Of a DNA stretch of 64,000 nucleotides, positions 23,789-25,941 are shown piece by piece; the first letter of the stretch is position 1, and the number at the start of each line of letters is the position of its first letter. The position numbers and the translations under genes were made by a program. Below the pieces are notes generated by a model, which worked only from the letters and a program-made list of their open reading frames with translations, was not told the origin of the DNA and did not search any database. The stretch spans positions 7,526 through 71,525 of the forward strand of contig CAMRSX010000007.1 of NCBI GenBank assembly GCA_947053595.1, written 5' to 3'. The stretch comes from an uncultured Clostridia bacterium (GTDB lineage: Bacteria; Bacillota; Clostridia; Christensenellales; UBA1242).

Positions 23789-25804
23789 ATGGAAAATGAA
23801 AACAATGTTTTAAACGCTGAAAACACCGAAGCTGTGGCAGTTTTGCCTGATGCTGCAAATGAGGCAGCAGACAAAGAAAAACTTTCAAAAAGCACCAAAT
23901 ATGACGCCAGCGAAATTCAGGTTTTGGAAGGTCTGGAACCTGTCCGAAAGCGTCCGGGTATGTACATTGGCTCCACCGATGCGCATGGCCTTCATCACCT
24001 TGTTCAAGAAGTGGTGGACAACTCTATTGACGAATCTTTGGCTGGATATTGCACCCAAATTGACATTGTGCTGGAAAGCGACGGAGCGTGCTCGGTTTCG
24101 GACAACGGCCGCGGCATTCCAACTGGCATCATTCCAAAAGAAGGCAAAAGCGCAGTTGAAGTTGTTTTGACAAAGCTGCACGCCGGCGGAAAGTTTGGCG
24201 GTGAAGGATATAAAATTTCTGGCGGTTTGCACGGCGTGGGTGTGTCCTGCGTAAACGCGCTTTCAACCAAGTTGACTGTGGATGTATATCAGGCTGGCAA
24301 GCATCATTTCATTGAGTTCTCTCGCGGGCGCAGCCTTGCCCCTCTTAGGGTGATTGGAAACTCCGACAAAACAGGAACAACCGTCACGTTTTATCCAGAC
24401 CCAGAAATTTTTGAAACCACAGTGTTTTCTTATGACAATCTGAAAAACCGCTTCCGCGAAATTGCATTCTTAAACAAGGGCTTGGTTATCACACTCACCG
24501 ACCGCCGTGAAGGTCAAGAGAAAACCGACCGCTTTGAATTTAAGGGCGGAATTGTGGAGTTTGTGAACTATCTCAACCAAAACAAGCAAGCACTGCTTTC
24601 TTATCCTGTCTATTTCAACAAATTTAATCATAACGAGAAAGGCGATGTTGTGAACGAAGTTGAAGTGTGTTTTCAATATAACGATTCTTACAACGAAATC
24701 ATCAACACCTATGCCAACAACATAAACACCGAGGAAGGCGGCACTCACCTTGACGGCTTTAAGAATGCCCTCACAAAGGTTATCAACGACTATGCTGTGA
24801 AAAACAAAATCATTAAAGAAAACGAAAAACTTTCGGGCGAAGACTGCCGCGAAGGCATCACAGCCGTGATTTCTGTCAAACTGCGAGAGCCTCAGTTTGA
24901 AGGGCAAACCAAAACCAAGCTTGGCAACAGCGAGATGCGCACCATTGTTTATAAAGCCATGCAAGAGGCGTTTGGAGATTATTTGGAAGAGCATCCAAGC
25001 GAAGCCAAAGAGCTTATCTTAAAATCCATCACAGCGCAGCGTGCGCGTGATGCTGCCAGAATGGCAAGAGAAACCACCAGAAGAAAGGGTGCGCTGGAAA
25101 GCACAACCCTTCCGGGCAAACTTGCAGACTGCACCGAAAAAGACAGCAGCCTGTGCGAAATTTACATTGTGGAGGGAGATTCGGCTGGCGGCTCTGCAAA
25201 GCAAGGGCGTGACCGCCGCTTCCAAGCAATTTTGCCTCTTAGAGGAAAGATTTTGAATGTGGAAAAGGCAAGATTGAACCGCATTCTTGAAAACGCGGAA
25301 ATTCGCGCAATGATAACCGCTTTTGGTGCTGGCACTGGAAACGATTTTGATGAAAGCAAACTGCGTTACAACAAAATCATCTGCATGTCCGATGCCGACG
25401 TGGATGGTGCACACATCAGAATTCTGCTTCTCACCTTCTTCTTCCGCTTTATGCGCCCACTGATTGAAAACGGACACGTGTATGCCGCTCAGCCTCCACT
25501 TTACAAGGTGGCAAAGGGCAAGGAAGAGTTTTATTTCTATAGTGACGAAGAACTCAACAAATGGTTTGAAGAAAACGGCAGAAAAGGCACCAGCCTGCAG
25601 CGATATAAAGGTTTGGGTGAAATGAATCCCGACCAACTTTGGGAAACCACCATGAATCCAGAAAACCGCATTTTGCTGCAAATCAACATGGAAGACGCCA
25701 TTGAAGCGGACAGAGTGTTCACCGAGCTTATGGGCGAAGATGTTGACCTGCGCCGCAAATTTATTGAGGAAAATGCAACGCTTGTCACCGACCTTGATGT
25801 ATAA
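23789..25804 (+). CDS. gyrB: DNA gyrase subunit B
   Basis: [17 protein letters not shown], the GHKL ATPase region, the Toprim motif [20 protein letters not shown], and [12 protein letters not shown]. Confidence 0.95.
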
Positions 25805-25893
25805 GAAAAGTTCATGACGAGGAGTCAGGATGCAAACGACACCGAAGGTGGCATTTGCATAGAGACGACGAAGTCATATGGTTTGCGAAGGCA

Positions 25894-25941
25894 AAACATA
25901 TCGAAGAAAACGCAACTTTAGTCACCGACCTTGATGTATAA
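25894..25941 (+). pseudogene. orphan second copy of the gyrB 3' end (15 codons + stop)
   Basis: Encodes [15 protein letters not shown] against gyr[16 protein letters not shown]. The last 21 nt are identical to 25784-25804. Upstream differences are mostly third-position or synonymous. Confidence 0.65.

What the first reader, a model, noticed from the sequence alone, without database searches (positions are those of the whole stretch)
25757..25941. Second, synonymously diverged copy of the gyrB C-terminal codons 137 bp downstream of the real stop
gyrB ends AAA TTT ATT GAG GAA AAT GCA ACG CTT GTC ACC GAC CTT GAT GTA TAA (25757-25804). At 25894-25941 the sequence AAA CAT ATC GAA GAA AAC GCA ACT TTA GTC ACC GAC CTT GAT GTA TAA encodes the same peptide except F to H. 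The upstream half shows six third-position or synonymous changes. The last 21 nt are identical. Synonymous divergence means the copy once belonged to a different, selected gyrB allele, as happens when an incoming DNA brings its own copy of the target gene end. The 89 nt between them form two hairpins (25831-25859; 25876-25901 with a GAAG loop). The DUF488 and MazG-like genes follow immediately.
Basis: partly seen in the sequence, partly recalled or inferred. Interest (0 to 1): 0.65.

Follow-up and report, generated by a model that had tools for sequence, protein, structure and literature searches.

The report
Orphan gyrB tail behind hairpin insert
A second, untranslated copy of the last 13 codons of the gyrase B gene sits behind a small two-hairpin insert; it recurs in several related gut Clostridia, and recombination with working gyrB genes probably keeps it looking like a gene.

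Summary
gyrB (23789-25804) ends in [13 protein letters not shown]. The same 13 codons plus stop recur at 25900-25941, behind an 89-nt spacer that folds into two hairpins. The last 21 nt are identical and the upstream differences are all synonymous.

The same layout occurs in four other Caccovivens-like species and as a decayed copy in a sixth. That is about 6 of 90 species sampled. Three of the carriers have no cargo gene between gyrB and gyrA, so the DUF488/MazG genes did not create it.

Close relatives have "empty" sites with exactly one tail, including a strain about 97% identical to a carrier. The hairpins covary. The module is single-copy and matches no Rfam family, phage or plasmid. The orphan has no conserved start codon or reading frame, so it is probably not translated.

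gyrB is visibly mosaic in this clade. In one carrier, the orphan's 3' part and the DNA to its right are 91-100% identical to an empty-site relative.

Best reading: a single-origin duplicative insertion at the gyrB end, moved and lost by homologous recombination. The orphan is repeatedly overwritten from functional tails of relatives, where the tail lies directly upstream of gyrA. The function of the hairpins is unknown. Moderately interesting.

The parts
23789..25804 (+). gyrB coding sequence, 671 aa, ending ..[15 protein letters not shown]
   Evidence: ORF list. Pfam hits to HATPase_c, DNA_gyraseB, Toprim and DNA_gyraseB_C. Relatives are 71-92% identical.
25763..25804 (+). Resident tail: last 13 codons plus TAA of gyrB (repeat copy 1)
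   Evidence: family D3.
25805..25813 (+). A-rich linker (GAAAAGTTC) between the gyrB stop and the first stem. It is 7-14 nt long in the other carriers.
25814..25877 (+). Hairpin domain P1. Outer stem ATGAC/GTCAT is 25814-25818 with 25873-25877. Middle stem GTC/GAC is 25824-25826 with 25864-25866. Inner hairpin ATGCAAA..TTTGCAT is 25830-25860.
   Evidence: Folding. Pair counts across 5 species show covariation in the middle and inner stems.
25876..25901 (+). Hairpin P2 (ATATGGTTTGC GAAG GCAAAACATAT), directly abutting P1. Its 3' arm supplies the 'K H' codons in front of the orphan tail.
   Evidence: Compensatory changes at 4 positions across species.
25900..25941 (+). Orphan tail: second copy of the 13 codons plus TAA, in the +2 frame relative to gyrB. 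Its only in-frame start codon (TTG at 25855) has no counterpart in L006 or L089.
25921..25941 (+). 21-nt block identical to 25784-25804. The equivalent block is 18, 24, 49 and 0 nt long in the other four species.
26037..26555 (+). DUF488-like cargo gene. It is a neighbour, not part of the duplication.
   Evidence: weak hit to PF22751. Present in only 5 of 80 relatives, none of which has an orphan tail.
26592..26858 (+). MazG-like cargo gene. It is a neighbour, not part of the duplication.
   Evidence: weak hit to PF03819. Common between gyrB and gyrA in relatives that have no orphan.
26891..29461 (+). gyrA, the right-hand conserved flank of the variable site

Best explanation
The orphan tail is the downstream direct repeat of a small duplicative insertion at the very end of gyrB. 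The layout is [last 13 codons + stop] - [two-hairpin spacer of 79-125 nt] - [last 13 codons + stop].

The junction between hairpin 2 and the orphan is the same in all carriers. I infer that the structure arose once, possibly by a C-terminal-displacement or illegitimate-join type of event.

The following steps are partly shown:

- The module has been carried between Caccovivens-like species and strains by homologous recombination in the highly conserved gyrB and gyrA flanks.
- It is lost again by recombination between the two tails or by microhomology deletion.

The orphan is not translated. It stays codon-perfect because, in relatives without the insert, the functional gyrB tail lies directly upstream of the intergenic region and gyrA. 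A recombination patch entering from the gyrA side is therefore colinear with the orphan. The patch must end inside the orphan, because homology stops at hairpin 2. Each such patch overwrites the orphan, most often its 3' part, with sequence copied from a functional tail.

The resident and orphan copies thus sample functional alleles independently and differ only at synonymous sites.

The two hairpins are under selection for structure. Their role is not established. My guess, at low confidence, is that they are an intercistronic or 3'-UTR structure of the gyrB-gyrA transcript.
For: 1. Recurrence with one junction. A homologous spacer plus orphan is found in L001, L094, L089 and L006, and decayed in L008. 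A profile search over 1.2 Mb of related loci finds the spacer only behind gyrB.

2. The structure is real. It is present in at least 24 contigs of the L006 species and 7 of the L089 species.

3. Empty sites differ by exactly one repeat unit.
- L004 against L094.
- L104-L106 against L006, which are about 97% identical across gyrB and gyrA.

4. Recombination across the locus is visible.
- gyrB of L094 against L004 is 72-82% identical in the first 750 nt and 88-94% in the last 1200 nt.
- The orphan's 3' part and the DNA to its right are 91-100% identical between these two, and the orphan's last 24 nt match L004's tail exactly.
- L006 against the empty strain shows 7-11% divergence confined to the orphan, the intergenic region and the first ~100 nt of gyrA, against a background of about 3%.

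5. Variable identity block. The block shared by orphan and resident is 18, 21, 24, 49 or 0 nt long, as expected for variable crossover points.

6. Codon-like divergence without translation.
- There are 23 nt differences between orphans and their own residents and only 1 amino-acid change. P(all synonymous | random) is 1e-5 to 2e-3 per species.
- No start codon is conserved. The frame offset is 2, 2, 2, 1, 2, and an in-frame TGA lies five codons upstream of the CAT codon in L089.

7. Hairpins covary. 91.5% of cells are paired, 8 pairs change on both sides, and 0 of 500 shuffles reach the observed covariation score.

8. The module is independent of cargo.
Against: - The founding event was not observed. 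No donor-type locus (hairpin spacer behind gyrB with no orphan ever present) was found.
- The spacer is 95% identical between L001 and L094 while their flanks are about 82% identical. Plain flank-mediated recombination does not explain this without selection on the spacer or independent movement of the module.
- Conserved, covarying hairpins imply a function that this explanation leaves open.
- The patch model predicts that orphans should sometimes carry random mutations. Only one was seen (E to D in L089), and the sample is only 5 species.
- Reads for the window genome itself were not available.
Confidence: 0.55

Rival explanations
1. The module is a miniature, non-autonomous mobile element specific for the gyrB end. 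The orphan tail is its homology or attachment arm. The hairpins are the structure recognised by a recombinase or HUH-type enzyme encoded elsewhere, or they act as single-stranded DNA hairpins during insertion. Alternatively, it is the attL-remnant-attR scar of an integrative element.
For: - Direct repeats of the target 3' end flank the insert.
- Presence and absence are seen even at the strain level.
- The spacer is more similar between L001 and L094 (95%) than their flanks (~82%).
- Carriers are scattered on the GyrB+GyrA tree.
- No stem pair varies on one side only, so there are no G-U intermediates. This fits a DNA hairpin.
- The same window holds other 3'-end duplications, at tRNA-Met, tRNA-Ser and the GlnRS-like gene.
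Against: - The window ORFs tested around the site have no recombinase, transposase or integrase domain.
- No relative among about 90 species has a larger element at this site.
- The identical block varies from 0 to 49 nt, which is unlike a fixed core or a target-site duplication.
- The module is single-copy. It has no other copy in the window or in 1.2 Mb of related loci.
- It has no match in phages, plasmids, viral contigs or JGI metagenomes.
- L008 shows passive decay.
Confidence: 0.2
2. The module is an antisense small-RNA gene on the minus strand. Its 5' region, the complement of the orphan tail, pairs with the last codons and stop codon of the gyrB mRNA. P2 and P1 form the scaffold, and the U-rich run after P1 on the minus strand helps termination. 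Selection for pairing keeps the orphan matched to the resident tail.
For: - There is an 18-49 nt perfect match between the orphan and the host's own tail in 4 of 5 species, and the two co-vary between species (TTG GAT GTG TGA in L001, CTT GAC GTG TGA in L094).
- An A-rich run lies just upstream of P1 on the plus strand in all carriers, which is a U-run after the hairpin on the minus strand.
- The hairpins fold on the minus strand too.
Against: - The consensus scan finds no consistent promoter to the right of the orphan on the minus strand. There is none in the window, L001, L006 or L094, and one weak site in L089.
- P1 is not a canonical terminator. Its stem base is AU-rich and the U-run starts 3-4 nt away. 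The scan called no terminator.
- L089 has no perfect block at all.
- The 5' half of the orphan differs from the host tail by about 25% yet stays codon-perfect, which pairing does not explain.
- The plus strand folds better in 4 of 5 species.
Confidence: 0.1
3. The orphan is expressed. It would be a micropeptide that mimics the GyrB C-terminus, or an alternative GyrB end reached by frameshifting, bypassing or RNA splicing. Purifying selection on the peptide would then explain the synonymous-only divergence.
For: - Orphan-to-orphan divergence is as high as resident-to-resident divergence while the amino acids are conserved.
- A TTG-initiated ORF of 27-28 aa ends in the orphan in the window, L001 and L094.
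Against: - L006 has no start codon in frame, and in L089 a TGA lies five codons upstream of the CAT codon.
- The frame offset relative to gyrB is not conserved: +2 in four species and +1 in L094.
- Both the resident and the orphan end in a stop, so bypassing or splicing would give the same protein.
- L008 has lost the orphan, and empty-site strains are common.
Confidence: 0.05
4. The duplication is an assembly artefact: two strain variants of the gyrB end were concatenated in a metagenome assembly.
For: - The identical block is 21 nt, a common k-mer size.
- One scaffold of another species carries a gap of 10 N inside the orphan.
- Reads for the window could not be inspected.
Against: - The spacer is homologous to spacers in four other species, with the same junctions.
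- Those structures recur in dozens of independent assemblies from different projects and sources.
- A concatenation artefact would not create covarying hairpins.
Confidence: 0.03

Closest known systems
C-terminal displacement and orphaned 3' gene fragments in Rhs, CDI and T6SS effector-immunity loci. Described in PMC5361080, which cites Jackson et al. 2009 for rhs.
   Same: A full-length gene is followed by an orphaned copy of its own 3' end. The structures are thought to arise by homologous recombination at one side and an illegitimate join at the other. They are then moved as blocks by homologous recombination.
   Different: - Here the orphan encodes the same peptide as the resident end. There is no toxin or immunity diversity.
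- Only 42 nt are orphaned.
- A conserved structured spacer separates the copies.
- The gene is an essential housekeeping gene.
attL/attR duplication of a protein-gene 3' end by integrative elements. Examples from my own knowledge: e14 and phage 21 in icd, SCCmec in rlmH/orfX, ICESt-type elements and their CIME derivatives in fda.
   Same: A second copy of the target gene's end lies downstream of an intact gene. The copies differ by synonymous changes, and small recombinase-less remnants are known.
   Different: - No integrase was found.
- The insert is only 79-125 nt.
- No full-size element sits at this site in about 90 relatives.
- The identical block varies in length from 0 to 49 nt.
Intergenic hairpin repeats and MITEs (REP/BIME, BOX, RUP, Correia-type elements; from my own knowledge)
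   Same: It is small and non-coding, forms hairpins, sits just after a stop codon, and is present or absent between strains.
   Different: - It is single-copy and locus-specific.
- It has no terminal inverted repeats and no short target-site duplication.
- It is flanked by a 42-nt gene-derived repeat.
T4 gene 60 translational bypass: a mobile insertion in a type II topoisomerase subunit gene (from my own knowledge)
   Same: A topoisomerase subunit gene carries an inserted stop codon plus hairpin, followed by sequence that repeats the codons before the gap.
   Different: Translation past the gap would add nothing, because the orphan ends in the same stop. The frame is not conserved, and no take-off or landing logic is needed.

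Membership tests
Integrative-element att duplication at a gene 3' end | Direct repeat of the target gene end on both sides of the inserted DNA | tested here: met
   25763-25804 and 25900-25941.
Integrative-element att duplication at a gene 3' end | Integrase or recombinase gene in or next to the insert, or a full-size element at the same site in relatives | tested here: not met
   The insert is 89 nt. The window ORFs tested on either side of the site show no recombinase domain. The intergenic space is at most 1.9 kb, and none of about 90 species has a tail-flanked larger element.
Integrative-element att duplication at a gene 3' end | Fixed core (identity segment) where strand exchange occurs | tested here: not met
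   The identical block is 21, 18, 24, 49 and 0 nt in five species.
MITE / REP-like dispersed hairpin repeat | Many dispersed copies per genome | tested here: not met
   There is no second copy in the 64-kb window. nhmmer over 1.2 Mb of related loci hits only the gyrB ends. Whole genomes were not available.
MITE / REP-like dispersed hairpin repeat | Terminal inverted repeats with a short target-site duplication | tested here: not met
   The flanks are 42-nt gene-derived repeats. The ends of the spacer are not inverted repeats of each other.
Diversity-generating retroelement (template/variable repeat) | Reverse transcriptase nearby, and mismatches confined to adenines of the template repeat | tested here: not met
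   None of the flanking window ORFs tested is a reverse transcriptase. The differences are T/C, G/A, G/T, C/T and T/A.
Programmed translational bypass (T4 gene 60 type) | The reading frame continues beyond the landing site to give a longer, necessary protein | tested here: not met
   The orphan ends in the same stop after the same 13 residues. The frame offset is not conserved.
C-terminal displacement / orphan 3' modules (Rhs, CDI, T6SS) | Orphaned 3' fragment downstream of the intact gene that shares a homology segment with it | tested here: met
C-terminal displacement / orphan 3' modules (Rhs, CDI, T6SS) | The orphan encodes a divergent C-terminal domain with a cognate immunity gene | tested here: not met
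   The peptide is identical. In L001, L006 and L094 no gene lies between the orphan and gyrA.
Known structured RNA family (Rfam 15) | Match at or near the gathering score | tested here: not met
   The best hits score 16-20 bits against gathering scores of 45-90.
Intrinsic terminator | GC-rich stem directly followed by a U-tract | tested here: not met
   No site was called on either strand in five loci. There is no U-run after P2.
Antisense small RNA against gyrB | Own promoter and terminator on the minus strand, and a transcript | tested here: inconclusive
   There is no consistent promoter match. A U-rich run follows P1 on the minus strand. Transcription cannot be tested with these tools.

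The most novel reading that the evidence does not exclude
The module is a previously undescribed kind of miniature selfish element that lives only at the end of the essential gyrB gene. It would be a covarying two-hairpin core plus a 'codon-mimic' arm that copies the target's last 13 codons. The arm would let the element enter empty sites and leave again without harming the gene. The arm's gene-like evolution would be a consequence of having to match functional targets.
Probability: 0.18. Interest if true: 0.7.

Novelty: new variant of a known kind. Interest (0 to 1): 0.45.

Why it matters
It is a clean natural example of a non-translated DNA segment that evolves as if under protein-level purifying selection. 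The likely cause is that recombination keeps recopying it from functional alleles. This is a caveat for any method that infers coding or 'once-selected foreign allele' status from synonymous-only divergence.

It also marks the gyrB-gyrA junction of these uncultured gut Clostridia as a recombination and cargo hot spot.

Finally, it defines a conserved, covarying two-hairpin element of unknown function next to the genes for a major drug target and phylogenetic marker. Mosaic gyrB sequences, as seen here, also matter for gyrB-based typing.

Tried and rejected
- **Third tail copy flanking the cargo:** no third copy of the tail lies between the cargo genes and gyrA, so DUF488/MazG are not flanked by tail repeats.
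- **JGI metagenome scan:** the spacer pattern gave 4 hits, all chance matches in unrelated contexts.
- **Viral-contig scan:** 2 chance hits.
- **Phage and plasmid BLAST:** nothing relevant.
- **Rfam:** nothing at permissive thresholds, on the window and on L006.
- **Exact look-up of the window's own GyrB:** not on record, so this species could not be resampled.
- **Small ORFs in the spacer** (MTRS.., MQTTPKVAFA, and the minus-strand 57-aa ORF): not conserved. The ATG is ATC in L089.
- **Frameshift or readthrough models:** rejected because the frame offset differs in L094 and in-frame stops intervene.
- **DGR:** rejected. The mismatches are not adenine-specific, and none of the flanking window ORFs tested is a reverse transcriptase.
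- **Foreign donor of the orphan's 5' half:** not identified. Several species are about equally near.
- **Link to other inserts in the window:** similarity between the gyrB spacer and the inserts next to the tRNA-Met orphan and the GlnRS repeat is not significant.
- **Promoter inside the tail for gyrA:** no convincing match.
- **PADLOC and NCBIfam on the cargo proteins:** nothing meaningful.

Full report
**1. The observation**

gyrB occupies 23789-25804 and ends [15 protein letters not shown]. The 48 nt at 25757-25804 recur at 25894-25941 with 40 of 48 identities, and the last 21 nt are identical. That 21-mer occurs nowhere else in the window even with 3 mismatches allowed, and 0 matches are expected by chance.

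Within the 13 codons that are truly homologous (25763-25801 and 25900-25938) there are 6 nt differences, all synonymous. The probability of that under random substitution is 7e-5.

The 89-nt spacer folds far better than shuffles, at -30 kcal/mol with z = -5.45.

The 'K H' codons in front of the orphan are the 3' arm of hairpin 2. They are not gyrB sequence.

The genes that follow are only weakly DUF488-like and MazG-like.

**2. Relatives**

A genome scan with GyrB returned 80 species of uncultured Clostridia, 'Candidatus Caccovivens' and allies, at 71-92% identity.

The space between gyrB and gyrA is a variable site. It runs from 55 nt to 1.9 kb. About 30 species have a MazG-like gene there, 5 have a DUF488-like gene, and others have further small ORFs.

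I searched each locus for a second copy of its own GyrB tail. Orphans turned up in L001 and L006. Looking up further GyrB clusters added L094 and L089.

L008 has the homologous spacer but has lost most of the orphan.

All copies share one architecture:

- the gyrB stop;
- 7-14 A-rich nt;
- ATGAC..inner hairpin..GTCAT;
- a second hairpin directly adjacent;
- then ATN GAA GAR AAY .. stop.

L001, L006 and L094 have no cargo gene. The duplication therefore has nothing to do with the DUF488/MazG insertion.

**3. Reality and polymorphism**

The L006-type structure includes a 49-nt perfect repeat. It is present in all 24 contigs read for that exact GyrB, in 8 more for a one-residue variant, and with only 0-1 substitutions in the four loci that I compared base by base. 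The L089 type is in 7 contigs.

Three assemblies of a strain about 97% identical to L006 across gyrB and gyrA have an empty site with exactly one tail. L004 is an empty counterpart of L094.

Carriers are scattered over the GyrB+GyrA tree.

**4. The spacer is a selected structure, not a dispersed repeat**

On an alignment of five species, 91.5% of the cells of my 25-pair model are paired. Eight pairs change on both sides and none changes on one side only. None of 500 shuffles reaches the observed covariation score, and slid controls collapse to 25-42% paired.

Caveats: N = 5, the structure was derived from these same sequences, and the long tip of hairpin 2 in L006 was trimmed.

Searches for the spacer elsewhere found nothing:

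- no Rfam family matches it;
- no terminator is called;
- no phage or plasmid carries it;
- a profile search over 1.2 Mb of related loci finds it only behind gyrB.

**5. The orphan is not an ordinary coding sequence**

- The in-frame region upstream has no start codon in L006.
- In L089, a TGA lies five codons upstream of the CAT codon.
- The offset relative to gyrB is +2 in four species and +1 in L094.
- The small ORFs in the spacer are not conserved.

Even so, orphans differ from their own resident tails by 23 nt in total with a single conservative amino-acid change. Orphans of different species are as diverged as the resident tails are, with the peptide intact.

The 5' half of an orphan differs from the host tail at most synonymous sites. 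A dead copy decaying in place would by then have collected many non-synonymous changes. Both copies must therefore derive recently from functional tails.

**6. How that can happen**

The locus recombines between species. Comparing L094 with L004:

- gyrB is 72-82% identical in its first 750 nt and 88-94% in its last 1200 nt;
- the orphan's 3' part and the DNA to its right are 91-100% identical;
- the last 24 nt of the L094 orphan are identical to the L004 tail.

L006 and its empty-site strain differ by about 3% overall. The difference rises to 7-11% in the stretch made of the orphan, the intergenic region and the first ~100 nt of gyrA.

In an empty-site genome the functional tail lies directly upstream of that intergenic region. 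A recombination patch entering from the gyrA side is therefore colinear with the orphan and has to end within it. This overwrites the orphan with functional-tail sequence, and its 3' part most often.

That accounts for four things:

- the identical 3' block of variable length (18, 21, 24, 49 or 0 nt);
- the match between those blocks and the host's own allele;
- the foreign-looking but codon-perfect 5' half;
- the absence of any need for translation.

Loss by recombination between the two tails gives a perfect empty site. Microhomology deletions also occur at this locus (L097 against L098) and probably in L008, judged from the sequences.

**7. What remains open**

- The founding event was not seen. 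One shared junction suggests a single displacement or illegitimate-join event of the kind proposed for Rhs and T6SS orphan modules (PMC5361080).
- The function of the hairpins is unknown.
- The spacers of L001 and L094 are 95% identical while their flanks are about 82% identical. This needs either strong constraint or movement of the module on its own.

These points keep three readings alive:

- a trans-mobilised mini-element;
- an antisense small RNA whose seed is the complement of the orphan (no consistent promoter or terminator signals);
- much less likely, translation of the orphan.

An assembly artefact is very unlikely given the cross-species and cross-assembly recurrence.

**8. Verdict**

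Its link to the cargo genes is wrong. Its 'foreign allele' inference is right in spirit, since both copies come from selected tails. The better explanation is ongoing homologous recombination rather than an integrating DNA that brought its own gene end.

It is a new variant of a known kind, an orphaned gene end or displacement scar with an unusual conserved structured spacer. Interest is moderate.

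Noticed in passing
window 21919-21947 and 22095-22123: A 29-nt perfect direct repeat comprises the last 5 codons, the TAA and 10 further nt of the GlnRS-like ORF (20216-21937). It flanks a 147-nt insert with hairpins. The window's GlnRS C-terminus (..GFKPSGVATKF*) differs from that of all relatives (..GFKPQK* and similar). This is a second 'orphan gene end' only 1.7 kb upstream of gyrB.
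   Followed up: partly
window 23301-23398 (minus strand), downstream of tRNA-Met 23526-23602: A second copy of the 3' half of the tRNA-Met gene (23378-23398 plus 23301-23323) is interrupted in the T-arm by about 55 nt. It lies about 130 nt beyond the tRNA terminator and looks like an att-type scar or a nested mini-insert.
   Followed up: partly
window 61741-62193, next to tRNA-Ser(cga) 62173-62263 (minus strand): A 178-nt unit is repeated 2.5 times in tandem at 97% identity. Each unit contains the 3'-terminal ~21 nt of the tRNA-Ser gene (TGGCGGAAACGGTGGGATTCG on the plus strand). These are tandem orphan tRNA 3' ends.
   Followed up: partly
L001-L080, between gyrB and gyrA: The gyrB-gyrA intergenic space is a cargo hot spot in this clade, ranging from 55 nt to 1.9 kb. 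MazG-like genes often start within about 10 nt of the gyrB stop, and there are also DUF488-like and several unannotated small ORF families.
   Followed up: partly
L097 against L098/L099 (identical GyrB), about 4960-5290: A within-species deletion of 240 nt removes most of the MazG-like cargo gene between two copies of AGAGAAGAAA. This shows that microhomology deletion operates at this site.
   Followed up: yes
L094 and L004, gyrB: gyrB is a clear inter-species mosaic, with a break about 750 nt into the gene: 72-82% identity to the left and 88-94% to the right. This is relevant for the use of gyrB as a phylogenetic marker in this group.
   Followed up: yes
L108 about 3660-3670: A scaffold gap of 10 N sits inside the orphan tail of an L006-type strain. 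Assemblers have trouble with this repeat.
   Followed up: no
window 22140-22160: The sequence GTCATGCTGAGCGAAGTCGAAGCATC lies just after the second GlnRS-tail repeat. It is a hairpin-forming motif that I recall, from memory only, as a common repeat in gut anaerobe genomes. I did not check this.
   Followed up: no
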